Part shown: positions 5,279 to 61,560 of the stretch, piece after piece | How the letters are laid out: every line of letters starts with the position of its first letter | Numbering within the stretch: the first letter of the stretch is position 1 | Source of the DNA: Escherichia coli phage vB_EcoM_Shy | Reading direction: 5' to 3' (one strand) | DNA: 64,000 nucleotides | Sequence record: MT833282.1 | Program-made: the position numbers and the translations under genes | The notes under the pieces: generated by a model | What the model was told of the DNA's origin: nothing | The model's database searches: none | The model's input: the letters and a program-made list of their open reading frames with translations, nothing else

Positions 5279-5290
5279 GGTTAAGATACA

Positions 5291-5316
5291 GGCTCCTTCG
5301 GGAGCCTTTTTCATTT
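5291..5316 (+). terminator. rho-independent terminator
   Basis: GGCTCC-TTCG-GGAGCC hairpin followed by TTTTT. Confidence 0.7.
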
Positions 5317-5330
5317 CAGGAGATTGTTAA

Positions 5331-5678
5331 ATGACATTTAAAGAGTTCTGCCAAGCTACTTTCATAATTGTTTTCTTAGTTGGAGCAGGTGTCTGGGGAG
5401 GATACTCTTACAGAGACTACCAAGTTGCTGAAGCTGAGCTAAATAATGAGAGACTAATAAGTGTTGCCAAAGATGCTTATCAGGAAGGTTTAGCCACACT
5501 CAGCACCAATTACAAAAATGATTTGAAAGATGTGCTTGCTAAGAATAAGCACACAAAAGAGGTAATAACATATGAAAAGACTAAGCCAGAGTTTTATAAT
5601 GTTTGTGTTACTGATAATTATGTCAGGGTGTTCAACGAACAAAGTGAACAGTACATTCAAAAACTCCCAAGTAAGTGA
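5331..5678 (+). CDS. i-spanin (Rz-like) candidate
   Basis: 115-aa ORF with single N-terminal TM helix (FIIVFLVGAGVWGG) and charged helical periplasmic domain; AGGAG SD; overlapped by a lipoprotein ORF in another frame. Confidence 0.6.
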   Translation: MTFKEFCQATFIIVFLVGAGVWGGYSYRDYQVAEAELNNERLISVAKDAYQEGLATLSTNYKNDLKDVLAKNKHTKEVITYEKTKPEFYNVCVTDNYVRVFNEQSEQYIQKLPSK

Positions 5679-5841
5679 GAGTGACAAGTACACTCAAGAA
5701 GAGTCAAGATTCACTGTCAAAGGTAATACTGGCAGTGATGTGGCAGCAGCCCTTGAGTTTTATCGTGATGGTTTTTACCAGTGCACAATCAAAGCTAATA
5801 ACCTTATTGACATGATTTTATTAGGGAACAAACAGCAATGA
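5572..5841 (+). CDS. o-spanin (Rz1-like outer-membrane lipoprotein) candidate
   Basis: 89-aa ORF starting inside the i-spanin gene in a different frame; signal peptide with lipobox (IIMSGC). Confidence 0.6.
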   Translation: MKRLSQSFIMFVLLIIMSGCSTNKVNSTFKNSQVSESDKYTQEESRFTVKGNTGSDVAAALEFYRDGFYQCTIKANNLIDMILLGNKQQ

Positions 5842-6107
5842 CAGAGAACGAAGACACTTTCTATGTAGAAGGGTACTTACTGCTACCACGACCAAAAGAA
5901 ACTTATATGCGGGTTGATTTTTCACCAACCATTATGGATAACGTGATGTGCCATATCTTTATGCAAGGTGTCACAGCACAGCTTAAGCATGTTGGTAAAG
6001 AGTGCAAAATAAAGGTTGACACTCATCCAGAAATCAAAGAGAATCACTACACATGGTTCTTACCAGACTCTAAAGAAATCTTAGCAGTTCTTAAAACGAG
6101 GAAGTGA
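5838..6107 (+). CDS. hypothetical protein
   Basis: 89-aa ORF, start overlaps previous stop (ATGA). Confidence 0.45.
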   Translation: MTENEDTFYVEGYLLLPRPKETYMRVDFSPTIMDNVMCHIFMQGVTAQLKHVGKECKIKVDTHPEIKENHYTWFLPDSKEILAVLKTRK

Positions 6108-6436
6108 CTATGCAGATTAATGGAAGAGACTTTGTAGCCGTTTACTACGAGAAAGATAAAGAAGTTGGTGTAGCACAAGTATCTTATGGTAATGGTAAGT
6201 GGTTGTATGGGACAATCGCAGTAGTCGGAACAAGAAGTGATACAAAAACTTTTAAAGACTGTGTTGACCTTCTTGAAGAATCCATCCATAATCATTGGTG
6301 TCTGATATGGATGACTGACAACGAAGTGATAGAACGCTTCAAAAAGATTGGTATCAACATTGATAGCATTGAGCATGTTGACTTGTATGAGCTAACTGAG
6401 AAGGTAAACTATGAAAGTAATACTAGCCAGAGATAA
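6104..6436 (+). CDS. hypothetical protein
   Basis: 110-aa ORF translationally coupled to the upstream gene. Confidence 0.45.
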   Translation: MTMQINGRDFVAVYYEKDKEVGVAQVSYGNGKWLYGTIAVVGTRSDTKTFKDCVDLLEESIHNHWCLIWMTDNEVIERFKKIGINIDSIEHVDLYELTEKVNYESNTSQR

Positions 6437-6638
6437 AAAGACACGGAAACTTATCAGGTCAGCGGTGTTCATTGGACGAAACGAGGTCATCCCATTTACA
6501 GCAAATGATGTGATAGCTTACAGGAAGAACTTAGTATTCACTGACTGTTTACGCGGCTTCATCTCTGAACCATTAGAAGATTTCAAAAGTCGCTGTGGCG
6601 AAGGCATCATCATTCAAGAGGCAATTATTCATGGCTGA
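6411..6638 (+). CDS. hypothetical protein
   Basis: 75-aa ORF in a compact co-directional gene string. Confidence 0.4.
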   Translation: MKVILARDKKTRKLIRSAVFIGRNEVIPFTANDVIAYRKNLVFTDCLRGFISEPLEDFKSRCGEGIIIQEAIIHG

Positions 6639-6831
6639 TTTCTGCAAAGATTGTGCTATCGAAATGTTTGGACGTGATACAGGTGACTTAAAAGGTCTTA
6701 TCACTGAAGATGACTTTAAAGCTGGATATGCAATGCCAGTAATCTGTGAAGGTTGTGGATGTATCTGGGTAGACCACGAAGGACAACGTGTAAAACCTTC
6801 AGAAGATAAAGAATCTTGGGAGAGATGCTAA
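6631..6831 (+). CDS. small zinc-ribbon protein (CxxC...CxxC)
   Basis: ATG at 6631 preceded by AAGAGG SD (the track's upstream start at 6595 is GTG); motifs CKDC and CEGCGC. Confidence 0.45.
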   Translation: MADFCKDCAIEMFGRDTGDLKGLITEDDFKAGYAMPVICEGCGCIWVDHEGQRVKPSEDKESWERC

Positions 6832-7617
6832 ATGGGTATTGTAAAAATTATCAATGGGGATATCTTCTCAGCATTTGATAAAGGTAAGTTTGATATCATT
6901 GGTCACGGTTGCAACTGTATGAACTTAATGGGTGCAGGTATCGCTGACAAGATTTCTAAACTTTACCCAAAAGCATATGAGACTGATACAGAAGTTTATC
7001 TGTATGCAGGAGGTATAGGTCACAAACCCTGTGAAAATTTACTAGGCAATTTCTCTGTAGCACGTTTAGAACAAGGCCGTATAGCTAACCTTTACACTCA
7101 GCTTAAGACTGGTAAAGATGCCCGATATAGTGCTTTAGAGTCATCTTTGAAACAGCTTAACAGATACTGTGAAGTCAATCAGTTGAAGAAAGTTGGGTTA
7201 CCTATGATTGGTGCAGGTATCGGTGGACTAGACCCTCAAGCCGTCACGGTTATCATTAATCAGGTGATGAAGAGTGTAGATGTGTATCTGTATGTCTACG
7301 AAGGAGAGATGTACCACAAGTTACGCTCAGGTTGGAAGAACTACTGTGAACCAGAATACTTTGCAGGTGTAGTAGTGTTCACTGATGATGCAGTTACCCT
7401 CTTCAGACGAAGAAAAGGTAAGATACATCAAAGTAACCCTCCGGTTGAAAAGATGTCTCTAAGTAACGCTCTAGTTACCCACCTGTCGAAGAGCAATCAC
7501 AGAATTGCAGTAACATTTGGCAGTGATGCAGATACATATATCTATGCAAGAACTGATGAGGATGTTGAGGAAATTTTCTCTTCACCGGAAGTAACCTTCT
7601 TAGACGCAAAGAACTAA
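6832..7617 (+). CDS. macro-domain (ADP-ribose-binding/processing) protein
   Basis: 261-aa ORF; N-terminal DIIGHGCNCMNLMGAGIA and downstream GLPMIGAGIGGLDP resemble the two glycine-rich macro-domain motifs. Confidence 0.6.
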   Translation: MGIVKIINGDIFSAFDKGKFDIIGHGCNCMNLMGAGIADKISKLYPKAYETDTEVYLYAGGIGHKPCENLLGNFSVARLEQGRIANLYTQLKTGKDARYSALESSLKQLNRYCEVNQLKKVGLPMIGAGIGGLDPQAVTVIINQVMKSVDVYLYVYEGEMYHKLRSGWKNYCEPEYFAGVVVFTDDAVTLFRRRKGKIHQSNPPVEKMSLSNALVTHLSKSNHRIAVTFGSDADTYIYARTDEDVEEIFSSPEVTFLDAKN

Positions 7618-7682
7618 GAAACTCTGTAGAATATTCACAATAGGTTAAGCCTTTCTTATCTGGTAAATTTTTCAGGTAAGGA

Positions 7683-7890
7683 GGGCTTTTTCATTTCAGG
7701 ATTGTGCAGGTAGAGTTCTGGACAGAAATCTGTAGAGATAATTTTGAACTCCAAAGAGAAAATTCATTTTCAAACTGTGCAGGTAATCTCCAAAGAGCTT
7801 TTTCATTTTCAAAACGTGCAGACCCCGCTCAGGTCGGGCAAGAAAAATCATTTTAGAATTGTGCAGGTAGGTGGGTGCAGGTGGGGATGT
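7683..7890 (+). repeat. array of 4-5 direct repeats TTTCATTTTCA-N-TGTGCAGGTA
   Basis: copies near 7683-7712, 7761-7785, 7801-7823, 7848-7871 and 7872-7886; related TTGTGCAG at 3530 and CTTTTTCATTTCAGGA at 5306. Confidence 0.6.
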
Positions 7891-8045
7891 CGCCATTTCT
7901 CACAAGGCTACCACATCTGGAAATAAAAGTCAACAGAAAAATTTGTAGCGGATTGAAAAATAATTCTTGATTGTAGTTCTGTTTTGTGGTAGTCGCGTGC
8001 GCCCGTTTCATTACAGTTTTTGCAAAAATATTTTTAAAATTCCTA

Positions 8046-8074
8046 TTGACTCTTTGAATATGGTTATCTAATAT
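8046..8074 (+). promoter_or_regulatory. sigma70-like promoter (TTGACT-17-TAATAT)
   Basis: near-consensus hexamers with 17-nt spacer about 50 nt upstream of the 8125 ORF. Confidence 0.55.
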
Positions 8075-8124
8075 TTGCATCAGACGGGCAATCAAGCCCA
8101 CTTCCTAAACTGGAGAATCAAAAA

Positions 8125-8331
8125 ATGCTTTACAGTCGTGAATTGATGGTTACAACTAACGTTAACACAAAGGTAAAACGTTTTTATATGCAAGTGTGCG
8201 GCGCATGGCGTAGAATATCAGAAGCTGATTATTGCAACTATGTAGAAACGGCAATCAATTCTAATTGCTACCTTACGAAGAATACAAAGCGACATATAAA
8301 ACAGACAGCGGTTTACTATTACGATATATAA
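8125..8331 (+). CDS. hypothetical early protein
   Basis: 68-aa ORF, first of a string of small rightward ORFs. Confidence 0.4.
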   Translation: MLYSRELMVTTNVNTKVKRFYMQVCGAWRRISEADYCNYVETAINSNCYLTKNTKRHIKQTAVYYYDI

Positions 8332-8421
8332 AAAGTACTTTACAGGGGGCTTAAAAGCTGATATCTTAAGCCCCAGATAAAGAGCTTTACTTAATTAACC
8401 CTTAAACTAGGAGATTCAAAA
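8332..8421 (+). promoter_or_regulatory. type-A intergenic cassette (9-bp hairpin GGGGCTTAA/TTAAGCCCC at 8346-8374 plus conserved leader CCTTAAACTAGGAGATTCAAAA-ATG)
   Basis: near-identical unit recurs at 8803, 9185, 9788, 11050 and 11849; possible promoter CAGACA-17-TATATA overlaps the upstream stop. Confidence 0.55.
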
Positions 8422-8802
8422 ATGGCTTATCGTGCACCTAAATTCATCAACAAAGACAACTTTCGCAACGCACTGGAGAAGTCACTTGATGAAAATTTTA
8501 AAGGTAACATTATCGTTGTTCACGCATTCAATTTTAAGTATGATGTAAACGGGAATAGAATCAACCATTACACAGCAACCATGTTAGATGGTACGCTATC
8601 AAGTGAAAAAGCTGTACTGAATGCACTTGCAGGACGTGGTAAAAACCTGATAAGATGCGATAAGAGACGTTATCAGGGTGGCGCATATGGTTATGATGAT
8701 GCTGTTTATCATCTTGAAAATATGGGCTATTCAGTGGAAAAAGCTGGAGTGTCTCAAATAATCGGCAGTGACGGCTATGTGACAATTTTCAAAATTAACT
8801 AA
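8422..8802 (+). CDS. hypothetical early protein
   Basis: 126-aa ORF with cassette SD upstream. Confidence 0.5.
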   Translation: MAYRAPKFINKDNFRNALEKSLDENFKGNIIVVHAFNFKYDVNGNRINHYTATMLDGTLSSEKAVLNALAGRGKNLIRCDKRRYQGGAYGYDDAVYHLENMGYSVEKAGVSQIIGSDGYVTIFKIN

Positions 8803-8893
8803 TAAAGTACTTTACAGGGGGCTTATAGTTCGATAAAGTAAGCCCCAGATAAAGAGCTTTACTTAATTAACCCTTAAACTAGGAGATTCAAAA
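8803..8893 (+). promoter_or_regulatory. type-A intergenic cassette (hairpin 8817-8845)
   Basis: GGGGCTTA-13 nt-TAAGCCCC hairpin and conserved SD leader; candidate -35/-10 (TGACAA-17-TAAAGT) overlaps the upstream stop. Confidence 0.5.
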
Positions 8894-9184
8894 ATGGCTA
8901 TTATTAAAAACGTTGTAATTCCTGCAAAAACTCGTGATGACGCTCGCATCATGGCGAAAAAGTTAGGCGGGAAAGTGGTTGACAACGGAAAACAAACTGC
9001 TGTAAGGTGGAACGTGAAGGCGGATAAACAAATGAATTTAAAAAATTCACCAATAAACCTTTTTACATGTGTAAACACTATCGGGAAAACGAATGTATAC
9101 ACTAAAAAGGCATATATCAGACGCATCGCCATGACGTCACCTATTCGCACAATGAGAAGTCATGCAAAGCTGAGAATTAAGTAA
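8894..9184 (+). CDS. hypothetical early protein
   Basis: 96-aa basic ORF with cassette SD. Confidence 0.5.
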   Translation: MAIIKNVVIPAKTRDDARIMAKKLGGKVVDNGKQTAVRWNVKADKQMNLKNSPINLFTCVNTIGKTNVYTKKAYIRRIAMTSPIRTMRSHAKLRIK

Positions 9185-9274
9185 TAGAGTACTTTACAGG
9201 GGGCTTAAAAGCTGATATCTTAAGCCCCAGATAAAGAGCTTTACCACTCAATCCTTAAACTAGGAGATTCAAAA
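9185..9274 (+). promoter_or_regulatory. type-A intergenic cassette (hairpin 9199-9228)
   Basis: same hairpin and leader as 8332-8421. Confidence 0.5.
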
Positions 9275-9787
9275 ATGAAAACTGTAGACGCTACCTTTGA
9301 AGTTGTAAAAGAAAAATTTTCCATCATTTACGAAGCTGTCAATTGCTACGAAGCAAGCCATAATCTTGATAATTGGAAGTTTACAGATGACCATCAAGGC
9401 GGTGTGACTATTAAAAACCCCAACTGTCAGCGTAATGGATTTAAATATGCAATTCCTTTACATTACAGCCTTAAACAGCTTTCAATTGACTATGCAAAAC
9501 AAGGCCGGGAAAATCCATCGAAAGAGGCTTACATCAGCTTACAGAAAGAACTAGAAAGAGATTTAGAGGCTTCAGAATATAACATCGCCGCGAAAGTTGT
9601 AGATGCAAACGGTAGCACGGTTTTAGAGAGTTTTTATATTGGTTATGCTTTCGATTGGTGCTACAGTGACGGCGATGATTTAGATGACAGACTAAAAGAG
9701 GAAGTGAACAACGCAGACGCAGAATCTGAAGTATTAGAACGCTTGGAAGCATTAAAAGATTCAGTGATGAATATCTTTAAGAACTAA
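9275..9787 (+). CDS. hypothetical early protein
   Basis: 170-aa acidic ORF with cassette SD. Confidence 0.5.
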   Translation: MKTVDATFEVVKEKFSIIYEAVNCYEASHNLDNWKFTDDHQGGVTIKNPNCQRNGFKYAIPLHYSLKQLSIDYAKQGRENPSKEAYISLQKELERDLEASEYNIAAKVVDANGSTVLESFYIGYAFDWCYSDGDDLDDRLKEEVNNADAESEVLERLEALKDSVMNIFKN

Positions 9788-9878
9788 ATAGACCTCTTTA
9801 CACGGGGCTAACAAGCGGATATGATAGCCCCAGATAAAGAGATTTATCAAATTAACCCTTAAACTAGGAGATTCAAAA
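9788..9878 (+). promoter_or_regulatory. type-A intergenic cassette (hairpin GGGGCTA/TAGCCCC 9804-9831)
   Basis: stem conserved while loop sequence differs from the other copies. Confidence 0.5.
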
Positions 9879-10175
9879 ATGAAATTATCAAATAAAGTTA
9901 GGGAAAACCTTAGCAAATTACTCAACAAAATTGATTTTATAGAGACATCAAGGAATAGTCATGATGTTATGGAATGGTTACACGGCAAAATAAAAGGCCG
10001 TCGTGTAGTGATTTGCTTATGGAATAGTTGCAGGGAGTATAAAAAGCCTGTATTGCAAATTAATGTTTATGATGATACTTTTAAAAGTCCTGTAAAGTCT
10101 AAAAGCGATTTATTAGAATCCTATGAGATAACTGTAAATGGCAAAGTATCACGTAAAGAGGAAACACCATGTTAA
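9879..10175 (+). CDS. hypothetical early protein
   Basis: 98-aa ORF with cassette SD. Confidence 0.5.
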   Translation: MKLSNKVRENLSKLLNKIDFIETSRNSHDVMEWLHGKIKGRRVVICLWNSCREYKKPVLQINVYDDTFKSPVKSKSDLLESYEITVNGKVSRKEETPC

Positions 10176-10501
10176 TGACTGGTATCACTGCAATCATTGC
10201 CATTTTCGCGCTATATAAGGCATATAAAGCCTATAATCTAGCAAATAAGGCAATCACACAGCAAGTTAGCAATAACCTTGTAGAGAGCTTTCTAGGGCGT
10301 TTAAGTGATGAGCAAATAAAGCGGCTAGAGATGAGCTTCAGATATAAAGCGAAAACCTATCAGATAAGTGACATCTTCAAAGATGATTTCCAGTTAGTTG
10401 ATGATTATAATTCTCTGATAAATGCTTTAAACATCAGTGACTTGAAAGACTATCACGCTGTAATTGTTCAAGAATTGAGCAAACGAAAACAAAGTGTTTG
10501 A
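10169..10501 (+). CDS. hypothetical protein with N-terminal hydrophobic segment
   Basis: 110-aa ORF overlapping the previous gene by 7 nt; N-terminus LMTGITAIIAIFALY looks membrane-associated. Confidence 0.45.
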   Translation: MLMTGITAIIAIFALYKAYKAYNLANKAITQQVSNNLVESFLGRLSDEQIKRLEMSFRYKAKTYQISDIFKDDFQLVDDYNSLINALNISDLKDYHAVIVQELSKRKQSV

Positions 10502-10592
10502 CACTGATTTTTAGATAGGTTAAATTACACATCAACGGGGAGGGGATGACCTTCCCCACTAAATAAAGTCCTTAAACTAGGAGATTCTAAAA
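10498..10592 (+). promoter_or_regulatory. type-B intergenic cassette: promoter TTGACA-17-TAAATT (10498-10526), 5'-UTR hairpin (10537-10557), conserved SD leader
   Basis: -35 overlaps the upstream stop codon; hairpin GGGGAGG/CTTCCCC; same architecture at 11551, 12799, 13362, 13960 and 14290. Confidence 0.6.
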
Positions 10593-10751
10593 ATGTTTTG
10601 TGCAGGTGATAAAGTTGTCTGGAATGATATAGATGACGGTTTATGTACGAAAGTTGTTGTTATCTTAGAAATTGATTATATCACTGGTGTTGCAACTGTA
10701 GCAGATAATGATATAATCTTTGATGTCTTAATTAGTGAACTGTCAAAATAA
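10593..10751 (+). CDS. small hypothetical protein (52 aa)
   Basis: ATG 9 nt after AGGAG of the conserved leader; below the ORF-track size cut-off; translated by eye. Confidence 0.4.
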   Translation: MFCAGDKVVWNDIDDGLCTKVVVILEIDYITGVATVADNDIIFDVLISELSK

Positions 10752-10777
10752 AGTCCTTAAACTAGGAGATTCAAAAA

Positions 10778-11049
10778 TGTACACTACTAACAACGGTCGC
10801 ACCTTAAACGTAACCCTACGCCACTATGTGAACGGTGTAATGCACTTCGAGGATTTACAAGCTGAACAGCACATTTTGGATTGGCAACTTGCAGGATTCC
10901 AAAAAACTGCTACCGGATACGGGAAAAAGATTCCAACTAGCTGGAAAGTATACTACGAAGGCCGTTTGCGTAGAATTTATCAAGATGTATGCGGCAATAG
11001 TGCATCAAGTTACATCATAGTAAAAGGCAAAAAGCTGCATTTAGCATAA
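10778..11049 (+). CDS. hypothetical early protein
   Basis: start re-assigned to the ATG after the conserved leader (AGGAGATTCAAAA-ATG); the track ORF 10735-11049 begins upstream inside the leader. Confidence 0.5.
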
Positions 11050-11134
11050 AGTACTTTACAAGGGGCTTATAGTTCGATAAAGTAAGCCCCAGATAAAGAG
11101 CTTTATCACTCAATCCTAAATTGGAGATTCTAAA
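11050..11134 (+). promoter_or_regulatory. type-A intergenic cassette (hairpin 11062-11090)
   Basis: GGGGCTTA-TAGTTCGATAAAG-TAAGCCCC plus leader variant AATTGGAGATTCTAAA-ATG. Confidence 0.5.
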
Positions 11135-11539
11135 ATGGCTATTAATAACCGTGAGTTATCAATCTTAAAAGCACGTTTGACCGTTAATCGGATTAATGTT
11201 ATTACATCATCAGCACCGGATGAGACATTGCACAACATTATCGGGAAGATTCAAAGTGTTATCTTAGACGTTGAAAACGTAAAAAACTCACTGGCTGACG
11301 TTGCAGCAGGTATCACGCTAGACGGTGCACAATATGAAATGGCTGACATGTTAGGCAAATCTAAGGTAATGAATAAAGAGTTAGACTTGAAAATGTTTAG
11401 ATTTGCTGTTAAAGTGTGGCTATCTGTCGAGTATGACGCAAATTTTGCAATCGCTGACTTTTTCGCAACATGGTTGCAACGTAATTTAACAAATCATGAT
11501 TTCCGTGATGTCTGTGATGCAATTTATGCGGAACTCTAA
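11135..11539 (+). CDS. hypothetical early protein
   Basis: 134-aa ORF with cassette leader. Confidence 0.5.
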   Translation: MAINNRELSILKARLTVNRINVITSSAPDETLHNIIGKIQSVILDVENVKNSLADVAAGITLDGAQYEMADMLGKSKVMNKELDLKMFRFAVKVWLSVEYDANFAIADFFATWLQRNLTNHDFRDVCDAIYAEL

Positions 11540-11550
11540 AAAAAAAACTG

Positions 11551-11644
11551 TTGACACTGATTTTTAGATATATTAAATTACGCATTAACGGGGAGGGAAT
11601 GAACTTCCCCACTAAGTAAAGTCCTTAAACTAGGAGATTCTAAA
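11551..11644 (+). promoter_or_regulatory. type-B intergenic cassette: promoter TTGACA-17-TAAATT (11551-11579), hairpin 11590-11610
   Basis: near-identical to the 10498 copy. Confidence 0.6.
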
Positions 11645-11848
11645 ATGGCTATTATTAACGGCTTAACCATTGAAACAACACACATCAAAGACATTAAAGT
11701 TGGTGATGTAGTCCTTTCCCACGGCGTAGAGAAAACTGTTACTGCAAAGGATATTAAAGAGGATTCTTTCATGGGTAGGACTCTCTTCGGTGATTCTTAT
11801 TGCTTGGGTTATCTTGCAGTTTTAAAAGTTGTCAAAAATAACCGTTAA
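11645..11848 (+). CDS. hypothetical early protein
   Basis: 67-aa ORF with cassette leader. Confidence 0.45.
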   Translation: MAIINGLTIETTHIKDIKVGDVVLSHGVEKTVTAKDIKEDSFMGRTLFGDSYCLGYLAVLKVVKNNR

Positions 11849-11940
11849 AGTACTTTACAAGGGGCTTATAGTTCGATAAAGTAAGCCCCAGATAAAGAGC
11901 TTTACCACTCAATCAAGTCCTTAAACTAGGAGATTCAAAA
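11849..11940 (+). promoter_or_regulatory. type-A intergenic cassette (hairpin 11861-11889)
   Basis: same hairpin and leader as the 11050 copy. Confidence 0.5.
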
Positions 11941-12504
11941 ATGAAATGCTATCACGGCACTACTCTGAAAAACTTTGTAAACCTGCTGAATGGTGGCGAC
12001 AAGCCTGAAGGAATCTGGAACTGCTCCTACATGGATGATTGTTTCTACGTTTACCCAATGAACAAGGTTATCAAAACGGAATGTCTGGAAGATGAGGAAG
12101 ATTCTTATATCCGTGAACGCTGCATTCAAAGCGCCTTAGAGTCTGGACTTATTACGGCAGCTTTCCAAATGGAAACGCAGGAAGTGATTGTTATCGAAAT
12201 GGATATCCCAGAGGAAGAACTTGAGGACGATTATTCTTGTGACAACATGAGCGAAATTGCCAGCTTTACCGGATACTTTGATAAGAATTGGATTATCGGT
12301 ATACACTCGACGAAATTTAGTGCGATGTATGCGCCTTTCTTTGTACCGGATACAACTAACCGTAATTTAGGATATATTGACGATGATTTGTTAAGTATGG
12401 CGAAAATTGTACAGAATAACGGTGATAGTTCCGTGTTTTGTGACCTACTTGATAAAATCACGGCAAACATCACAGAACGCAATTTAAAAGACTTTTTAGG
12501 TTAA
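11941..12504 (+). CDS. hypothetical early protein
   Basis: 187-aa acidic ORF with cassette leader. Confidence 0.5.
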   Translation: MKCYHGTTLKNFVNLLNGGDKPEGIWNCSYMDDCFYVYPMNKVIKTECLEDEEDSYIRERCIQSALESGLITAAFQMETQEVIVIEMDIPEEELEDDYSCDNMSEIASFTGYFDKNWIIGIHSTKFSAMYAPFFVPDTTNRNLGYIDDDLLSMAKIVQNNGDSSVFCDLLDKITANITERNLKDFLG

Positions 12505-12567
12505 TCAGTACAAAGACACCAACTTCCAACTTAAGGCCCGTACAGGGCCATTTAGAGGGCTTCAATC

Positions 12568-12801
12568 ATGCTTACAACCATTTACCTCATCCTTTCCATT
12601 TGTAATGGTCATTCATGCGATTTTAAAGGGCTTGAGGAGTTTACAGGGAGTAAAGAAAATGTTATTCATGCCTGTCAGATAGCAAGGCAAGACTATCCCG
12701 CCAGTGATGATATACAATGTTACTTTAAGACAGAAGATAATGACGGCGTTTATTTTGATAGCGTAGACGGTCAATATGAAATTATCATTGAAAAAGACTA
12801 G
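12568..12801 (+). CDS. hypothetical small protein with hydrophobic N-terminus
   Basis: 77-aa ORF; N-terminus MLTTIYLILSICNG resembles a signal or anchor. Confidence 0.4.
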   Translation: MLTTIYLILSICNGHSCDFKGLEEFTGSKENVIHACQIARQDYPASDDIQCYFKTEDNDGVYFDSVDGQYEIIIEKD

Positions 12802-12890
12802 ACAAGCCTGATAAAAGTCTGTAAATTGTCAATCAACGGGAGGTAATAACCCCCCCACTAAGTAAAGTCCTTAAACTAGGAGATTCAAAA
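12799..12890 (+). promoter_or_regulatory. type-B intergenic cassette: promoter TAGACA-17-TAAATT (12799-12827) plus leader
   Basis: -10 TAAATT overlaps the upstream stop codon; weaker GGGAGG/CCCCC hairpin. Confidence 0.5.
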
Positions 12891-13232
12891 ATGGCTTATG
12901 TAACCGTAATTACCGATAAAGCTGGCTCATCTTGGTCAACTCAAGTCAGTGATAAGATGTCACCTATGCAGTGCCTAAAATACTTTGAGCAATGGAACAA
13001 AGGCGAGGATGTCAGCCCCTTTCAAGTAATGCAGATTATCCATACAGATAACGAAGGGAATAAAACTGTTTTGAATAGTGAGTACTACGCAACCCGATTT
13101 GAAACGAGATGTAAAGCAATGAAGCTTTTGCGTGAGTCTGGTTATTCTCATATTGCCTCACTAATCTGGAATGACCTGCTAAAAAATCAGCGTATCAGCT
13201 ATGTAAAACCTGAAAAAATATTCATCAGTTAA
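12891..13232 (+). CDS. hypothetical early protein
   Basis: 113-aa ORF with cassette leader. Confidence 0.5.
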   Translation: MAYVTVITDKAGSSWSTQVSDKMSPMQCLKYFEQWNKGEDVSPFQVMQIIHTDNEGNKTVLNSEYYATRFETRCKAMKLLRESGYSHIASLIWNDLLKNQRISYVKPEKIFIS

Positions 13233-13264
13233 TCAATAACTTACAAAAAACTTTTTAAAAAGCA

Positions 13265-13293
13265 TTGACAATACCCCTTGACATTGGTAAATT
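13265..13293 (+). promoter_or_regulatory. orphan promoter TTGACA-17-TAAATT with no ORF immediately downstream
   Basis: consensus -35 twice (13265, 13278) and TAAATT at 13288; next start codon is 160 nt away behind a second promoter. Confidence 0.45.
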
Positions 13294-13361
13294 TGTTCGA
13301 GGGGGTTTATCTAAAAGGGATTAACTTAAAAGATTCTTTATAGATAAGCTTAAAAAATTGC

Positions 13362-13454
13362 TTGCAATCAGATATCAAAACAAGTAAATTACTAATCAAC
13401 GGGAGGTAATAACCTCCCCACTAAGTAAAGTCCTTAAACTAGGAGATTCAAAAA
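13362..13454 (+). promoter_or_regulatory. type-B intergenic cassette: promoter TTGCAA-17-TAAATT (13362-13390), hairpin GGGAGG-TAATAA-CCTCCC (13401-13418)
   Basis: hairpin stem differs from other copies by compensatory changes. Confidence 0.55.
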
Positions 13455-13985
13455 ATGAACAAGTTCAAAGCTATAAACTTCATTCGTTCAAATAGTGTTA
13501 TGTCAAAGCCTGTTAAAGACACCTATGAATTTCGTTGCAATGGGGTGCATTTTGCAACCATCACCAAATCAGAAAACGGAGCTTATTACATCCATCGCCG
13601 TAATGTTGCAACCGTTGTTGTCTCTCATTTTATGCAAGCTGTCGCGGAACTTCTCCCGATGTTTTTAGGGCTTTACTTGGATGAGTGTAAAAACGTTCAC
13701 AATCACGTTAAAAACCTTTTAAACAGCTATAAAATGGCTTATGAACGTTCTATCAAGTCATTGAACAAGTTTTACAACGCACCTGAAAACACTGTGTCAA
13801 TAGCCTATGGTGTAAGCGGTGAAATGGTAAACTTATCCAATGTGGAAGAAATCAAGCTGCATGATTTACGCCCTAACGGTTACGCTAAAACCATCGGTGA
13901 AGGTTTAACTTTCAATATCAAGAACTTAGAAAAAACTTTAAAAGATATTGAAAAAGATATTGACGAGACAATCAAAAGTCTGTAA
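13455..13985 (+). CDS. hypothetical early protein
   Basis: 176-aa ORF with cassette leader. Confidence 0.5.
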   Translation: MNKFKAINFIRSNSVMSKPVKDTYEFRCNGVHFATITKSENGAYYIHRRNVATVVVSHFMQAVAELLPMFLGLYLDECKNVHNHVKNLLNSYKMAYERSIKSLNKFYNAPENTVSIAYGVSGEMVNLSNVEEIKLHDLRPNGYAKTIGEGLTFNIKNLEKTLKDIEKDIDETIKSL

Positions 13986-14051
13986 ATTGTCAATCAACGG
14001 GGAGGGAATGACCTTCCCCACTAAGTAAAGTCCTAAACTGGAGTTATCAAG
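13960..14051 (+). promoter_or_regulatory. type-B intergenic cassette: promoter TTGACG-17-TAAATT (13960-13988), hairpin 13999-14019
   Basis: -10 overlaps the stop codon of the upstream gene. Confidence 0.55.
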
Positions 14052-14315
14052 ATGGAAAACGTCGAACTGACCACACTTTTACAAATTGCAACCGACAAAG
14101 AGGATGTAGCATTATTCCACCGTATCGAAAGTGATTTGTTCAATGGTGAAATCATTAAAGAATCTTACGAAGTGGTCGGATTCAAAGATGGTAAATCATT
14201 TGGATTCTTTGACCTCGACAAAGGCAACGCTATTACAAAGTATGATGTTTTATCTTGTGAGATTCTGACAAAATACAACGAAAAAAGACTTGCAACATAC
14301 GCCAACATGCAGTAA
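14052..14315 (+). CDS. hypothetical early protein
   Basis: 87-aa ORF with SD GGAG. Confidence 0.45.
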   Translation: MENVELTTLLQIATDKEDVALFHRIESDLFNGEIIKESYEVVGFKDGKSFGFFDLDKGNAITKYDVLSCEILTKYNEKRLATYANMQ

Positions 14316-14380
14316 ATTACTAATCAACGGGAGGGATGACCTCCCTACTAAATAAAGTCCTTAAACTAGGAGATTCTAAA
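14290..14380 (+). promoter_or_regulatory. type-B intergenic cassette: promoter TTGCAA-17-TAAATT (14290-14318), hairpin GGGAGG/CCTCCC (14329-14346)
   Basis: same architecture as the other type-B copies. Confidence 0.55.
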
Positions 14381-14629
14381 ATGGCAACTATCCGCGCAAT
14401 TGTAAATTCTTATGGCTGCTACACTCTGGACGTTAAATTTGATATAGGTGGGACCGATGAGTGTTTCGAACTGGTGAAAACAGTCATTAAACAAGTTATC
14501 CCAGACTATAACCCTACTGATGACTTCTGGAAAGATGCAGTAAAAGAGGCGTTGAACGATGAATATCATTACCATTATTGGGGTGATTTGATTGTCTCCC
14601 TGTACTACAATAAACAAGGTTGCAACTAA
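14381..14629 (+). CDS. hypothetical early protein
   Basis: start re-assigned to the ATG after the conserved leader; the track ORF 14336-14629 starts inside the leader. Confidence 0.5.
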   Translation: MATIRAIVNSYGCYTLDVKFDIGGTDECFELVKTVIKQVIPDYNPTDDFWKDAVKEALNDEYHYHYWGDLIVSLYYNKQGCN

Positions 14630-21996: not shown

Positions 21997-23381
21997 TATG
22001 CCTCCCCTGCTGGGTTAACTGTAACTGTTGCCGCATTAGATGTTACAGAGCCACCTGCACCAGTCACTACACAAGTGTAGCTTCCTGCATCAGCAGCAGT
22101 TGCACCTTCTTTGGTGTAAGTTGCAGTCGTTGCGTCTGGGATAACTTCCTCACCTTTCTTCCACTGGTAACCTGTTGCACCAGTTGCCACAACATTCAGC
22201 GTTAAGGTCTCACCTTCAGTGATTTCTTGATTGACTGGTTGTTGAGTGATGACTGGAAGAGCATTAACGGTAACAGTTGCAGCATTAGATGTTACTGTTG
22301 TACCACCTGCACCAGTAACTACACAGGTATATGAACCAGCATCGGCAGGGTCTGCTTTAGCTTTCGTGTAAGTTGCACCAGTTGCGCTAGGGATGTTCAC
22401 GTTGTCTTTCTTCCATTGATAACCTGTTGCACCTGTGGCCTCAATACTCAGCGTCAAACTGCCACCTTCATTGACTACTTGGTTAGTTGGCTGCTTGGTA
22501 ATAACTGGCAAAGCATTTACCGTGACAGTTGCAGGGTTAGAAGTAACAGAACCTCCAGCACCAGTTACAACGCAAGTGTAAGAACCTGCATCTGCTGGAA
22601 GCGCACCAGATTTGCTATAGTTAGCATTTGTAGCTGATGGGATGTCAGAGCCATCTTTCTTCCATTGGTAGCCTGTTGCACCTGTTGCAGTAACTGATAA
22701 TTCAATGTTTCCACCTTCATTAATGGTCTGGCTAGAAGGTTGCTGTGTAATCACAGGTAGTGCGTTAACAGTAACCGTTGCCGCATCTGAGGTAACACTT
22801 GTCCCCGCCTCTCCAGATACAACACAAGTGTATGAGCCAGCGTCAGAAGGAACTACAGATTGTTTTGTATAAGTTTCAGATGTGGCACTGGAGATATCCT
22901 CACCATCCTTCTTCCATTGATAACCAGTGGCATTAGTTGCGAGAACGCTTAGGGTAAGTGTTCCACCCTCATTGACTGTTTGGTTTGTCGGTTGCTGAGT
23001 AATTACTGGTGGCTTAATAGCATCCTTCAGCTTAGCATTCAACATTGAAAATGGCTTAACTCTTGCCAACCATTCACAATACACCGTGTCAACGTCTTTA
23101 CCATTGATAATTGCATATTGTAAATCCATGAAGAAGTCAGAAGTTCTCATTTGAGCACCGACGCTGTAAAGCAAATCATCACTAAAAGGAACTTTGTAGT
23201 CTGGTTTGTAGTCAAACTTCTTAACTTCTGCGATATCAGCTTCAGGCCAATATGAGCTATAGGTGAGTGGTAAAATAGCTTCTTGATATGTTCTAAAATC
23301 ATATCTCTTACCAGCCTTTACATTTGCGATGAAGCCCTTCACAAATTCTTTGAAGTCTGGGTAAGTCTTTGCTTTAATCAT
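21996..23381 (-). CDS. Ig-like-domain repeat protein (four tandem Ig-like modules), possibly virion decoration or adhesin
   Basis: 461-aa ORF; about 200-aa N-domain then four repeats of about 90 aa (ALPVITQQP...ATGATGYQWKKDG...DAGSYTCVVTGAGG...ATVTVN), also visible as about 270-bp DNA repeats. Confidence 0.6.
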   Translation of the reverse strand: MIKAKTYPDFKEFVKGFIANVKAGKRYDFRTYQEAILPLTYSSYWPEADIAEVKKFDYKPDYKVPFSDDLLYSVGAQMRTSDFFMDLQYAIINGKDVDTVYCEWLARVKPFSMLNAKLKDAIKPPVITQQPTNQTVNEGGTLTLSVLATNATGYQWKKDGEDISSATSETYTKQSVVPSDAGSYTCVVSGEAGTSVTSDAATVTVNALPVITQQPSSQTINEGGNIELSVTATGATGYQWKKDGSDIPSATNANYSKSGALPADAGSYTCVVTGAGGSVTSNPATVTVNALPVITKQPTNQVVNEGGSLTLSIEATGATGYQWKKDNVNIPSATGATYTKAKADPADAGSYTCVVTGAGGTTVTSNAATVTVNALPVITQQPVNQEITEGETLTLNVVATGATGYQWKKGEEVIPDATTATYTKEGATAADAGSYTCVVTGAGGSVTSNAATVTVNPAGEA

Positions 23382-28209: not shown

Positions 28210-28218
28210 TAATTTAAT

Positions 28219-28294
28219 GGAAGTGTAGCAGAATGGTGATGCGGCAGACTTTTAATCTGACAGGCGATGGGTTCGAATCCCTCCACTTCTACCA
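28219..28294 (+). tRNA. tRNA-Lys (anticodon UUU)
   Basis: acceptor GGAAGTG/CACTTCT, anticodon loop CTTTTAA, T-loop TTCGAAT with weak T-stem; CCA encoded. Confidence 0.6.
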
Positions 28295-28298
28295 ATAT

Positions 28299-29448: not shown

Positions 29449-29526
29449 GGGAGATTGACGGTAATTGGTAAACCTACCATCCTTAGAAGTTGGTGTTTGA
29501 GGGTTCGAATCCCTTGTCTCCTACCA
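29449..29526 (+). tRNA. tRNA with Leu-type anticodon UAG, short variable arm (tentative Leu)
   Basis: acceptor GGGAGAT/GTCTCCT (two G-U pairs), anticodon loop CTTAGAA, T-arm GAGGG-TTCGAAT-CCCTT, A73, CCA encoded. Confidence 0.5.
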
Positions 29527-29533
29527 AATTAAT

Positions 29534-29609
29534 GCAGGTGTAGCAAAATGGTTATGCGGCTGACTCTTAATCAGTAAGACGATGGGTTCGAATCCCTCCA
29601 CCTGTACCA
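29534..29609 (+). tRNA. tRNA-Lys (anticodon CUU)
   Basis: paralogue of the 28219 tRNA; anticodon stem-loop CTGA-CTCTTAA-TCAG; same unusual T-stem. Confidence 0.6.
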
Positions 29610-29615
29610 AGCATT

Positions 29616-59699: not shown

Positions 59700-60110
59700 T
59701 AAGGCTACTGCCATCCTTCCATACCAAACCCTACCGAACAGAACCATGCTTTGCCATACTGGACAACACCTGACCAGACATCACTTAAAAACCCTTTTCA
59801 AAGACTCTTAAGTGATGTAATCGAATTTTAATGTAGCTCCGATTAACTACCCATACCTTGCATTACTTCACCAAACCGTACATTACTTCACCAAACCATA
59901 CATTACCAGACCATGCCACACCTGTCCAAACTCAACCTCATTAAAAGACCCTCTTTAAAGACCTTTTAATAAGGTAAGTCTCATTTTAATGTAGCTGAGA
60001 CTAACTACCCATACCAGACCCTACCTTACCAAACCAGACCTCACCCTACCCCACCATACCGTATACTACCTCATTAAAAGACCCTGTTTAAAGACCTTTT
60101 AAAAAGGAGC
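59700..60110. repeat. G-poor (C/A/T-rich) intergenic module, copy 1
   Basis: tandem 21-bp units CATTACTTCACCAAACC(G/A)TA, ACC-rich tracts, two copies of the hairpin motif ending TAACTACCCATACC (59819-59857, 59978-60015) and TTAAAAGACCCT(C/G)TTTAAAGACCTTTTAA; related copy at 61250-61560. Confidence 0.65.
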
Positions 60111-60134
60111 CTCCGAAGAGGCTACCCAGTCAAC

Positions 60135-60575
60135 TTAGAAAGGTTTTCTGCGTTGCTTGTTAATGTTAGCTTTCATAGCAGCTAAATGGTTTTGCTGTTC
60201 AATCAGTCGTGAACGTTCTTGATGGCTAAGTGCCATAGTGTTCACATTCTCAATCGCTTGAGTAGCTTGCTTTAAAGCACGACCAATCTTACCAGACATT
60301 TTACGTTTTGCAATAGTTGCTTGATGCTTAGGTTCGACAACACGATAACCAACACCCATTGAAGCAACCAGATAAATCTTCTCTTCTTTAAGAAGCTTCT
60401 CAATAAACTTCTCAAGTCGGTTTAGACGTGTAAGTGCATAAGCCTTCATTTCATCTTCGTACTTAACAATGTCGCCTTGATAAGTTGGCTTCACAATACC
60501 TAAGAAGGTGTCCATCTCAGAATGTGATACAGTGTCACCGTAACTAAACTTTGCTGCTAATGCTTTTGTATTCAT
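60135..60575 (-). CDS. hypothetical protein
   Basis: 146-aa basic ORF between the two G-poor modules. Confidence 0.5.
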   Translation of the reverse strand: MNTKALAAKFSYGDTVSHSEMDTFLGIVKPTYQGDIVKYEDEMKAYALTRLNRLEKFIEKLLKEEKIYLVASMGVGYRVVEPKHQATIAKRKMSGKIGRALKQATQAIENVNTMALSHQERSRLIEQQNHLAAMKANINKQRRKPF

Positions 60576-60577
60576 AA

Positions 60578-61183
<606 letters not shown>

Positions 61184-61249
61184 TTAGTTGATTGTTAAGT
61201 TGTTTGTAAAGAACCCTCAACAGAAGACTCTTTAGAAACTTGGTAGATT

Positions 61250-61560
61250 TTTAACGTGGCTACTACCATCCACCCATACCGTGCCACACCACACCGGACT
61301 ATACCATGCCCAACCCTACTACACCAGACCTTATTAAAAAACCCTCTTAAAGACCTTTTAAAAAGGTAAGTCTCATTTTAATGTAGCTGAGACTAACTAC
61401 CCATACCTTACCGCACCGGACATTACCGGACCGCACATCACCGCACCAAACCAAACATCACATTACCTGACCTCACCGCGCCTTACCATACCTCACTTAA
61501 AAACCCTCTTAGAAGACCCTTAAGTGATGCTGGTGAGTACCCGTTGGTTTATGCTGCTCA
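61250..61560. repeat. G-poor (C/A/T-rich) intergenic module, copy 2
   Basis: shares AAAGACCTTTTAAAAAGGTAAGTCTCATTTTAATGTAGCTGAGACTAACTACCCATACC (hairpin 61370-61393) and ACC-rich CACCGCACC tracts with copy 1. Confidence 0.65.

What the first reader, a model, noticed from the sequence alone, without database searches (positions are those of the whole stretch)
6832..7617. Macro-domain protein in the early region: candidate anti-defence enzyme
The N-terminal 150 residues carry both glycine-rich macro-domain motifs (GHGCNCMNLMGAGIA and GLPMIGAGIGGLDP). Macro domains bind or hydrolyse ADP-ribose adducts, so a phage early macro-domain protein could reverse ADP-ribosylation imposed by host toxin or defence systems (for example DarT-type DNA ADP-ribosylation) or process ADP-ribose-derived signals. 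The extra 100-aa C-terminal region is not explained.
Basis: partly seen in the sequence, partly recalled or inferred. Interest (0 to 1): 0.6.

Follow-up and report, generated by a model that had tools for sequence, protein, structure and literature searches.

The report
Phage macrodomain enzyme with orphan tail
This Felix O1-like phage gene encodes a real ADP-ribose-removing (macrodomain) enzyme of a family recently shown in other phages to defeat bacterial ADP-ribose/NAD-based immunity, fused to a small fast-evolving domain of unknown role found only in this phage subfamily.

Summary
Observation confirmed: ORF 6832-7617 (+) encodes 261 aa, and both quoted Gly-rich motifs are present. Residues 1-157 are a macrodomain (Pfam 32.1 bits against a cutoff of 22; AF2 pLDDT 86; the top fold hits are DarG and TARG1). 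The window is a Felixounavirus, and the gene is Bas63 gene 95, annotated "putative phosphatase". The macro part belongs to one phage family with two validated members: T4 Tk.4/AdfM (anti-DarTG2, genetic evidence) and Vibrio phage Gary Adpp (an ADPR-1''-phosphate phosphatase that feeds NARP1 against aRES). The catalytic Lys of DarG/TARG1 is replaced by an invariant Gln90, positioned by Asn28. This is the pair that is essential in SCO6735, which cleaves ADP-ribosyl-thymidine on DNA. Pocket residues match T4 AdfM better than Adpp, and the gene is not in the NARP1 operon. My best guess is therefore reversal of DarT2-type DNA ADP-ribosylation (about 0.45). The main rival is an Adpp-like role supporting the phage's NARP1 (about 0.25). 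The C-terminal ~105 aa fold as a separate beta-rich domain with no relatives outside this fusion. It is unrelated to the DarG C-terminal domain, is under weaker purifying selection, and is replaced by an unrelated extension in Kolesnikvirus. The gene is dispensable on lab hosts. This is a new variant of a known kind, of moderate interest.

The parts
6832..7617 (+). Complete gene (261 aa + stop). It is the orthologue of Bas63 gene 95 / Felix O1 p025, annotated 'putative phosphatase'.
   Evidence: ORF list and sequence. 95.9% nt identity to bas63_0095. 99.6% aa identity to SME50_071.
6832..7302 (+). Macrodomain (residues 1-157). ALC1-like class (TARG1/DarG/SCO6735), phage Poa1p-like/AdfM/Adpp family.
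   Evidence: Pfam 32.1 bits. PDB profile hits to TARG1 and DarG. AF2 model plus Foldseek. BLAST bits to T4 AdfM 81, JG004 NARP1-linked macro 76, Gary Adpp 53. dN/dS 0.01-0.06 within the genus.
6901..6945 (+). Gly-rich loop 1, GHGCNCMNLMGAGIA (residues 24-38). It contains the invariant Asn28 (nt 6913-6915), which is equivalent to SCO6735 Asn27 and DarG Asn22.
   Evidence: Alignment. The SCO6735 N27S mutant is nearly inactive (PMC9411070).
7087..7101 (+). NLYTQ motif (residues 86-90). The invariant Gln90 (nt 7099-7101) sits in the column of the catalytic Lys80 of DarG and Lys84 of TARG1, and equals the essential Gln85 of SCO6735.
   Evidence: Alignments. SCO6735 Q85A abolishes ADPr-T-DNA hydrolysis. 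T4 AdfM and Gary Adpp also carry Gln here.
7195..7236 (+). Gly-rich loop 2, GLPMIGAGIGGLDP (residues 122-135), the diphosphate-binding loop. The 'GAGIGG' form is shared with T4 AdfM; the Adpp group has 'GCGLAGG'.
   Evidence: Alignment.
7303..7614 (+). C-terminal orphan domain (residues 158-261): a linker helix, six beta-strands and a terminal helix. Conserved residues are P174, G179 and Y236.
7647..7688 (+). Terminator-like hairpin (17-pair stem followed by a T-run), 30 nt after the stop codon. It marks the likely end of the transcription unit.
5290..5307 (+). Upstream terminator-like hairpin. It marks the start of the packed co-oriented block 5331-7617 (i-spanin, o-spanin, four small unknown ORFs, then the macro gene).

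Best explanation
The gene encodes a catalytically competent ADP-ribose C1''-hydrolase (macrodomain) that the phage uses as an accessory counter-defence enzyme. The ADP-ribose moiety would bind in the cleft formed by the two Gly-rich loops. Asn28 positions Gln90, which holds the distal ribose so that water cleaves whatever is attached at C1''. The most likely physiological substrate is ADP-ribosyl-thymidine placed on single-stranded phage DNA by DarT2 toxins of host DarTG2 systems. Removing it would restore replication and packaging, as in T4 Tk.4/AdfM. A secondary ADPR-1''-phosphate phosphatase activity is plausible for this enzyme class. Shown here: the fold, family membership, conservation of the catalytic pair, strong purifying selection, and dispensability on defence-poor lab hosts. 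Inferred: the substrate, the anti-DarT2 role and early expression. The appended C-terminal domain is a functional but fast-evolving lineage-specific module. It is most likely a protein-interaction or targeting adaptor rather than a nucleic-acid binder.
For: Fold and family.
The closest functionally characterised homologue by score is T4 Tk.4 (34% identity, 81 bits), named AdfM and required for T4 growth on DarTG2 hosts.
The only NCBIfam and PADLOC hits are DarG models, over the macro part.
N28 and Q90 are invariant in 19 homologues and map onto SCO6735 N27 and Q85, both needed for ADPr-T-DNA hydrolysis.
At pocket-proximal positions 26/89/130/131 the protein reads G/T/I/G like T4 AdfM. The NARP1-linked Adpp group reads Q,V / G,A / L / A.
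The gene is about 14-15 genes and about 7.8-9.6 kb from NARP1 and is separated from it by terminators.
Its closest single-domain relatives are not NARP1-adjacent.
DarTG2 occurs in E. coli inside a type I R-M defence locus.
Macro-domain dN/dS is 0.01-0.06.
Bas63 gene 95 is dispensable on lab strains (beta +0.6 to +1.1), like the NARP1 genes.
Against: There is no experiment on this protein or on any Ounavirinae orthologue.
T4 Tk.4's activity is supported genetically only; its biochemistry is not shown.
In the tree the two-domain proteins form their own clade. They are not nested in the T4 group, and bit scores to T4 AdfM (81) and to a NARP1-linked macro (JG004, 76) are close.
Every phage carrying the fusion also carries Namat/NARP1 upstream, which would also fit an Adpp-like role.
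The four-position signature rests on few sequences, and one NARP1-linked macro (phiAbaA1) is intermediate.
PhageMaP found no condition in which gene 95 matters, and DarTG2 does not appear in its main text.
Confidence: 0.45

Rival explanations
1. Adpp-like role. The enzyme is an ADPR-1''-phosphate phosphatase that converts the product of RES-type NAD+ phosphorolysis (aRES) into ADPR. The phage's own NARP1 (Adps + Namat) can then rebuild NAD+. This would be a dispersed, non-operonic NARP1-AP.
For: It is homologous to the biochemically validated Vibrio phage Gary Adpp (27% identity, E 1e-12) and to other NARP1-operon macros (JG004 30%, 76 bits). The same Asn/Gln and loop motifs are present. Bas63 genes 79-80 are the proven NARP1. 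Namat lies upstream of the macro fusion in every relative examined, including those at 33-43% identity. aRES systems come from E. coli, Klebsiella and Enterobacter, which are hosts of this phage group. The historical annotation is 'phosphatase / Poa1p-like'. Poa1p is a fold match with TM 0.49.
Against: It lies outside the NARP1 operon, whereas Adpp was defined as lying within two genes of it. Here it is about 14-15 genes away, beyond terminators. Similarity to Gary Adpp is lower than to T4 AdfM. Pocket positions 26/89/130/131 differ from the Adpp group. The co-occurrence with NARP1 could simply be Ounavirinae backbone synteny. T4 has the homologue without any reported NARP1 link.
Confidence: 0.25
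2. The enzyme erases ADP-ribose from another macromolecule, RNA or protein. One example is countering mRNA ADP-ribosylation by CmdT-type toxins or protein MARylation by host ARTs. Another is resetting marks made by a phage ART.
For: ALC1-like macrodomains such as TARG1 and SCO6735 also act on protein substrates. An mRNA-ADP-ribosylating defence, CmdTAC, exists in E. coli (PMC11618068, listed). The macro domain of the Felixounavirus/Mooglevirus proteins is basic (pI 8.6-9.3).
Against: No ART, sirtuin or other writer is annotated in Bas63, and none is adjacent to the gene. No homologue has been shown to counter such systems. This reading is less parsimonious than the two validated family functions.
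Confidence: 0.12
3. The protein is a non-catalytic ADP-ribose-derivative binder (a sponge) or a degrader of Thoeris-type signals (gcADPR, His-ADPR). It would act on immune signalling rather than on damage.
For: Aravind and colleagues argued that most phage macro domains target small ADPr derivatives (PMC9503650). Macro domains can bind His-ADPR, as ThsA does.
Against: The catalytic Asn/Gln pair is invariant under very strong purifying selection. Both characterised family members act enzymatically on other substrates. There is no evidence for signal binding in this family.
Confidence: 0.06
4. RNA-repair housekeeping: removal of ADPR-1''-P produced by a Tpt1/KptA-type 2'-phosphotransferase during tRNA repair. 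The link would be to the nearby polynucleotide kinase.
For: A PNK/HAD_PNKP gene lies about 2 kb upstream, and this synteny is conserved. Poa1p has this role in yeast.
Against: No Tpt1/KptA, 2H phosphoesterase or RNA ligase is annotated in Bas63. T4-type PNK/ligase repair produces no 2'-phosphate.
Confidence: 0.04

Closest known systems
T4 Tk.4 = AdfM (anti-DarT factor, macrodomain; Q-type)
   Same: It belongs to the same phage macro family: 34% identity over residues 3-157, with identical HGCNC...MGxG, NLYTQ and IGAGIG motifs. It is a non-essential accessory gene in a region of small ORFs.
   Different: T4 AdfM is a bare 155-aa macrodomain. This protein has about 12 extra residues between helix 1 and strand 3 and a ~105-aa C-terminal domain. 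The C-terminal domain shows no similarity to T4's downstream Tk.3. The two-domain proteins form a separate clade. No phenotype is known for it.
Adpp of NARP1-AP (Vibrio phage Gary KNV71_gp137)
   Same: Same family and the same Asn/Gln catalytic pair. The phage also encodes NARP1.
   Different: Identity is lower (27%). The loop-2 form differs (GCGLAGG against GAGIGG), as do positions 26 and 89. Adpp sits between Adps and Namat, whereas this gene is about 8-10 kb away. Adpp has no C-terminal domain.
DarG2 antitoxin (Mtb/Thermus DarG, PDB 5M3I/5M3E; E. coli DarG2)
   Same: It is the top structural neighbour and the only NCBIfam/PADLOC model hit. The overall layout is also 'macrodomain + second domain'.
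   Different: The catalytic Lys80 is replaced by Gln90. The score is 47.6 bits against a 250-bit cutoff. The C-terminal domain is unrelated to DarG's helical DarT-binding domain (hhalign 0.16%). There is no adjacent DarT.
SCO6735 (Streptomyces coelicolor, PDB 5E3B) and TARG1/OARD1
   Same: Same ALC1-like class. SCO6735 shares the Gln-for-Lys active site with a supporting Asn, and it hydrolyses ADPr-thymidine on DNA. TARG1 is the best PDB sequence hit.
   Different: These are cellular proteins. SCO6735 has a longer basic mobile loop. TARG1 uses a Lys84/Asp125 dyad that is absent here (Q90, G131).
PhiKZ gp104 'AdfM' (chimallivirus DarG2-like macro; K-type)
   Same: It is a phage macrodomain that removes DarT2 ADP-ribose from DNA, with biochemical proof (PMC13309987).
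   Different: It belongs to a different lineage that retains the DarG-type Lys (N23/K78). It is imported into the phage nucleus. It shares the name AdfM with T4 Tk.4 but is not orthologous to it.

Membership tests
Macro domain superfamily (Pfam PF01661) | Profile score above the curated gathering threshold | tested here: met
   32.1 bits against a cutoff of 22, residues 25-141 covering profile positions 2-117 of 118
Macro domain superfamily (Pfam PF01661) | Three-layer alpha/beta/alpha macro fold with two Gly-rich ADP-ribose-binding loops | tested here: met
   AF2 pLDDT 86. 220 PDB matches at E<=0.001; the 50 listed are macrodomains or serine hydrolases designed on macro scaffolds. The loops are at residues 24-38 and 122-135.
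ALC1-like class, TARG1/DarG type | Catalytic lysine after the beta-strand 'xxxTK' (DarG K80 / TARG1 K84) | tested here: not met
   The column holds an invariant Gln90. TARG1 Asp125 aligns to Gly131.
ALC1-like class, SCO6735/ALC1 type (Gln active site) | Gln at the K80/K84 position, positioned by an Asn in loop 1 | tested here: met
   Q90 = SCO6735 Q85 and N28 = SCO6735 N27. Both are invariant in 19 homologues, and both residues are essential in SCO6735.
DarG antitoxin (NCBIfam NF048014 equivalog) | Full-length match above the 250-bit cutoff, including the C-terminal DarT-interacting domain | tested here: not met
   47.6 bits, with only model positions 4-153 of 338 matched. hhalign of the C-terminal domain against the E. 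coli DarG2 C-terminal domain gives probability 0.16%.
DarG antitoxin (NCBIfam NF048014 equivalog) | Encoded next to a DarT (DUF4433) toxin gene | tested here: not met
   The neighbours have no Pfam match and belong to function-unknown PHROGs. The Bas63 annotation shows none.
Phage AdfM (T4 Tk.4 type) | Sequence homology and a shared active-site motif set with T4 Tk.4 | tested here: met
   34% identity, E 1.4e-23, 81 bits. The HGCNC / NLYTQ / IGAGIG motifs are identical.
Phage AdfM (T4 Tk.4 type) | Required for phage growth on DarTG2-expressing hosts; removes ADPr from thymidine in DNA | not testable with these tools
   This needs gene-95 deletion plaque assays and an in vitro de-ADP-ribosylation assay. 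No published data were found for Ounavirinae.
Adpp / NARP1-AP | Macro gene located within the Adps-Namat operon (within two genes) | tested here: not met
   In Bas63 it lies 15 genes and about 9.6 kb downstream of the start of Namat. In SME50 it lies about 7.8 kb past the end of Namat. NARP1 lies outside the window.
Adpp / NARP1-AP | Homology to the validated Adpp (Vibrio phage Gary) | tested here: met
   27% identity, E 1.2e-12, 52.8 bits. It differs at pocket-proximal positions 26/89/130/131.
Adpp / NARP1-AP | ADPR-1''-phosphate phosphatase activity | not testable with these tools
   This needs an LC-MS assay on purified protein.
Poa1p-like (yeast ADPR-1''-P phosphatase, PDB 6LFQ) | Full-length sequence/profile similarity to Poa1p | tested here: inconclusive
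   Only the N-terminal ~60 residues align by sequence (E 6e-5). The fold match has TM 0.49 and ranks 23, behind DarG and TARG1.

The most novel reading that the evidence does not exclude
The C-terminal module may be a lineage-specific, rapidly evolving 'second warhead' or targeting adaptor. It might bind and block a host immune protein such as DarT2, or tether the hydrolase to phage replication/ssDNA machinery. That would make the protein a non-homologous functional analogue of the two-layer DarG antitoxin (enzyme plus stoichiometric inhibitor). Replacement by an unrelated ~106-aa extension in Kolesnikvirus, with the macro core kept, would then reflect arms-race module swapping. A related possibility is that the same enzyme serves both anti-DarT2 and NARP1-feeding (ADPR-1''-P) roles in one phage.
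Probability: 0.15. Interest if true: 0.65.

Novelty: new variant of a known kind. Interest (0 to 1): 0.4.

Why it matters
Phage macrodomains have only just been tied to specific counter-defence roles: AdfM against DarTG2 and Adpp against aRES. This gene is the sole macrodomain of a large, therapeutically used phage group, the Felix O1-like Ounavirinae, with about 250 sequenced genomes. That group also carries the prototype NARP1. It is therefore a clean, genetically tractable test case, because Bas63 knockouts are routine. The question it can answer is whether one Gln-type macro enzyme handles DNA-linked ADP-ribose, ADPR-1''-phosphate, or both. The orphan C-terminal domain is conserved as a fold, evolves quickly and is swapped in one genus. 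It is a lead to a possibly new protein-interaction layer in anti-defence enzymes. If the answer is simply 'another AdfM', the finding is useful annotation rather than new biology.

Tried and rejected
1. C-terminal domain related to T4 Tk.3, the gene downstream of tk.4: BLASTP gives no alignment.
2. C-terminal domain homologous to DarG2's DarT-binding domain: hhalign probability 0.16%. The DarG tail looks helical from its sequence (my reading), while this domain is beta-rich.
4. Beta-propeller/PQQ-like hits (BamB, P0037 and long multi-stretch proteins): generic beta-meander similarity, judged spurious.
5. P0032 and P0038 as stand-alone C-terminal domains: these are truncated ORF calls of the same fusion.
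6. Nucleic-acid-binding C-terminal domain: net charge varies from -5 to +4, so there is no conserved basic character.
7. AFDB fold search: the library was unavailable, so BFVD was used instead. It returned only the SUSP2 orthologue.
8. Discrimination of AdfM from Adpp by the PADLOC/NCBIfam DarG models: all three proteins score alike.
9. Functional partner among the co-transcribed neighbours: all belong to function-unknown PHROGs.
10. Published phenotype: PhageMaP shows only dispensability and does not mention DarTG in its main text. The HIDEN-SEQ, AdfN and aRES papers contain no Felixounavirus data. The Thoeris/Migulavirinae preprint concerns the ThsA macro domain, not phage macros.
11. Transcriptome evidence for early expression: none found.

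Full report
**What is there.** The window is a Felix O1-like myovirus (Felixounavirus, Ounavirinae). Bases 6000-8500 match about 250 phage records and are 97% identical to Escherichia phages CRP22, P54 and SME50. The ORF 6832-7617 (+) encodes 261 aa. It is the orthologue of Bas63/JohannRWettstein gene 95, annotated 'putative phosphatase'.

**The macro assignment is solid.**
- Pfam Macro scores above its gathering threshold.
- PHROG 335 matches the full length.
- A 19-sequence family profile hits TARG1 (3.8e-11) and the DarG macrodomains (3.5e-9, 1.5e-7) among PDB sequences.
- The AlphaFold2 model (pLDDT 86, pTM 0.86) retrieves Thermus DarG, TARG1 and Mtb DarG as its best PDB folds. Poa1p and the viral macrodomains follow close behind.

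**Which macro family.** tblastn against phage genomes finds 2804 records. Only 257 cover at least 80% of the protein. The rest align to residues ~3-160 only, including T4 Tk.4 and its T-even relatives at about 34% identity.

Two members of this phage family now have experimentally supported roles.
- T4 Tk.4 was named AdfM because transposon insertions and a clean knockout sensitise T4 specifically to DarTG2 (bioRxiv 10.1101/2025.11.20.689424).
- A macro protein encoded between Adps and Namat in Vibrio phage Gary (Adpp) converts ADPR-1''-phosphate, the product of the aRES NAD+ phosphorylase, into ADPR so that NARP1 can rebuild NAD+ (bioRxiv 10.64898/2026.01.28.702374). Its sequence is in Table S1 of that paper.

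A separate paper uses the name AdfM for PhiKZ gp104. That protein is a DarG-like macro that keeps the catalytic lysine and is biochemically proven to remove T-linked ADP-ribose (PMC13309987). It belongs to a different lineage.

**Active site.** In alignments with verified sequences of Mtb DarG (identical to 5M3I), TARG1, SCO6735, T4 AdfM and Gary Adpp, the catalytic Lys80/Lys84 column is an invariant Gln (Q90). This holds here and in every phage family member. It is not a sign of inactivity. In SCO6735, the equivalent Gln85 is essential for hydrolysis of ADP-ribosyl-thymidine on DNA, and the Asn27 that positions it is nearly as important (PMC9411070). Asn27 maps to the invariant N28. The macro domain is under very strong purifying selection, with dN/dS 0.01-0.06 within the genus. 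I therefore regard it as a working C1''-hydrolase of the Gln type.

**Which substrate.** Sequence cannot settle this, but several weak lines point the same way.
- BLAST scores are 81 bits to T4 AdfM, 76 to a Pakpunavirus NARP1-linked macro and 53 to Gary Adpp.
- At four pocket-proximal positions (26, 89, 130, 131) the protein matches T4 AdfM (G, T, I, G), not the NARP1-linked group.
- The gene is not in the NARP1 operon. In Bas63 and SME50 it lies about 8-10 kb and 14-15 genes downstream, beyond terminator-like hairpins.
- Its closest single-domain relatives are not NARP1-adjacent either.
- DarTG2 is present in E. coli, embedded in a type I R-M locus.

Against this, the two-domain proteins form their own clade. 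Every genome carrying them also carries Namat upstream, even at 33-43% identity. Bas63 genes 79-80 are the prototype NARP1. An Adpp-like role, or a dual role, therefore remains a serious rival. NARP1 itself is not in this window, which begins 75 nt into rIIA.

**The C-terminal ~105 residues.** They fold as a separate unit: a linker helix, six strands and a terminal helix.
- An exhaustive HMM scan of 1.84 billion representative proteins finds only the same macro fusions.
- The domain is unrelated to T4 Tk.3 and to the DarT-binding domain of E. coli DarG2.
- Its net charge is not conserved, which argues against a nucleic-acid-binding role.
- It is never disrupted and is under purifying selection, but a much weaker one than the macro core (dN/dS 0.12-0.66).

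The fusion is a hallmark of Ounavirinae: Felixounavirus, Mooglevirus, Suspvirus, Si3-like phages and metagenomic relatives. In Kolesnikvirus the macro core is kept (43% identity) with an extension of similar length that shows no detectable similarity. A fixed enzyme with a variable appended module is what one would expect of an adaptor that contacts a variable partner. That reading is inference only.

**Context and phenotype.** The gene is the last of a tightly packed block (5331-7617) that starts with the spanin pair and is bounded by terminator-like hairpins. Its neighbours are all of unknown function. The larger neighbourhood (Namat, rIIA, rIIB, PNK, spanins) resembles the T4 early/middle region, but I found no transcript data. 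No ART, Tpt1, RNA ligase, Nudix or NADAR is annotated in Bas63. This weakens the 'self-ART eraser' and 'RNA-repair by-product' rivals. In the PhageMaP screen, Bas63 gene 95 has positive beta values, like other dispensable accessory genes including NARP1. That fits a conditional counter-defence gene.

**Verdict.** The protein is a member of a now-known kind of phage anti-defence macrodomain, in a new two-domain architecture. The best-supported mechanism is reversal of DarT2-type ADP-ribosylation of thymidine in phage DNA (about 0.45). An Adpp-like ADPR-1''-P phosphatase role feeding NARP1 is the main rival (about 0.25). The function of the C-terminal domain is unknown. Interest is moderate (0.4): the biology is largely anticipated by 2025-2026 work, but the gene offers a clean, tractable test of substrate specificity and an unexplored appended domain.

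Noticed in passing
window 8314-14383: A ~50-100-nt intergenic cassette is repeated at least 9 times. It consists of a TTTACA promoter-like box, a GC hairpin (GGGGGCTTA...TAAGCCCC) and an invariant RBS (TAAACTAGGAGATTCAAAAATG). Each copy lies directly upstream of a small + strand ORF, giving an array of single-gene expression units just downstream of the macro gene.
   Followed up: partly
L016 10998-11780 (Erwinia phage vEam_PM_6, Kolesnikvirus): The orthologous 'phosphatase' keeps the macro core (43% identity). Its ~106-aa C-terminal extension has no detectable similarity to the Felixounavirus-type C-terminal domain (hhalign probability 0.06%). This suggests module replacement or extreme divergence.
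   Followed up: partly
literature: The name AdfM is used for two non-orthologous phage macrodomains. T4 Tk.4 has a Gln-type active site and genetic evidence. PhiKZ gp104 has a Lys-type, DarG-like active site and biochemical evidence. This invites annotation confusion.
   Followed up: yes
window 7618-8124: There is a ~500-nt gap after the macro gene with only short minus-strand ORFs (7696-7896, 7853-8101). Small minus-strand genes are annotated here in Bas63. In several relatives the 2.5-kb query spans 2.8-3.7 kb in 2-4 pieces, which implies indels or insertions in this neighbourhood.
   Followed up: no
L017 2064-2555 (phage SME50): An HNH homing endonuclease gene sits between Adps and Namat, splitting the two-gene NARP1 operon in the closest relative of this window.
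   Followed up: no
window 22051-23048: Four tandem ~250-nt repeats (61-76% identical), probably repeated domains of a coding sequence. The Bas63 orthologous region encodes an immunoglobulin-like domain protein.
   Followed up: no
window 59728-61529: Several copies of an 85-117-nt ACC-rich repeat ending in TTAAAAGACCCTCTTTAAAGACC, in two clusters about 1.3 kb apart. Its nature is unknown.
   Followed up: no
window 28211-28295 and 29526-29610: Two 85%-identical ~85-nt copies with a tRNA-like T-arm (GGTTCGAATCCC), presumably paralogous tRNA genes in the phage tRNA array.
   Followed up: no
L006 (E. coli pSTEC1012_1, 848-2568): An E. coli DarT (DUF4433)-DarG2 pair is inserted between the hsdS and hsdR genes of a type I restriction-modification system, an example of a defence-island context for DarTG2.
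   Followed up: no
L014 7252-10820 (metagenomic phage contig): A single-domain relative of this macro protein lies two genes upstream of a reverse transcriptase (RVT_1) followed by an 875-aa HATPase_c-like protein on an 87-kb phage-like contig.
   Followed up: no
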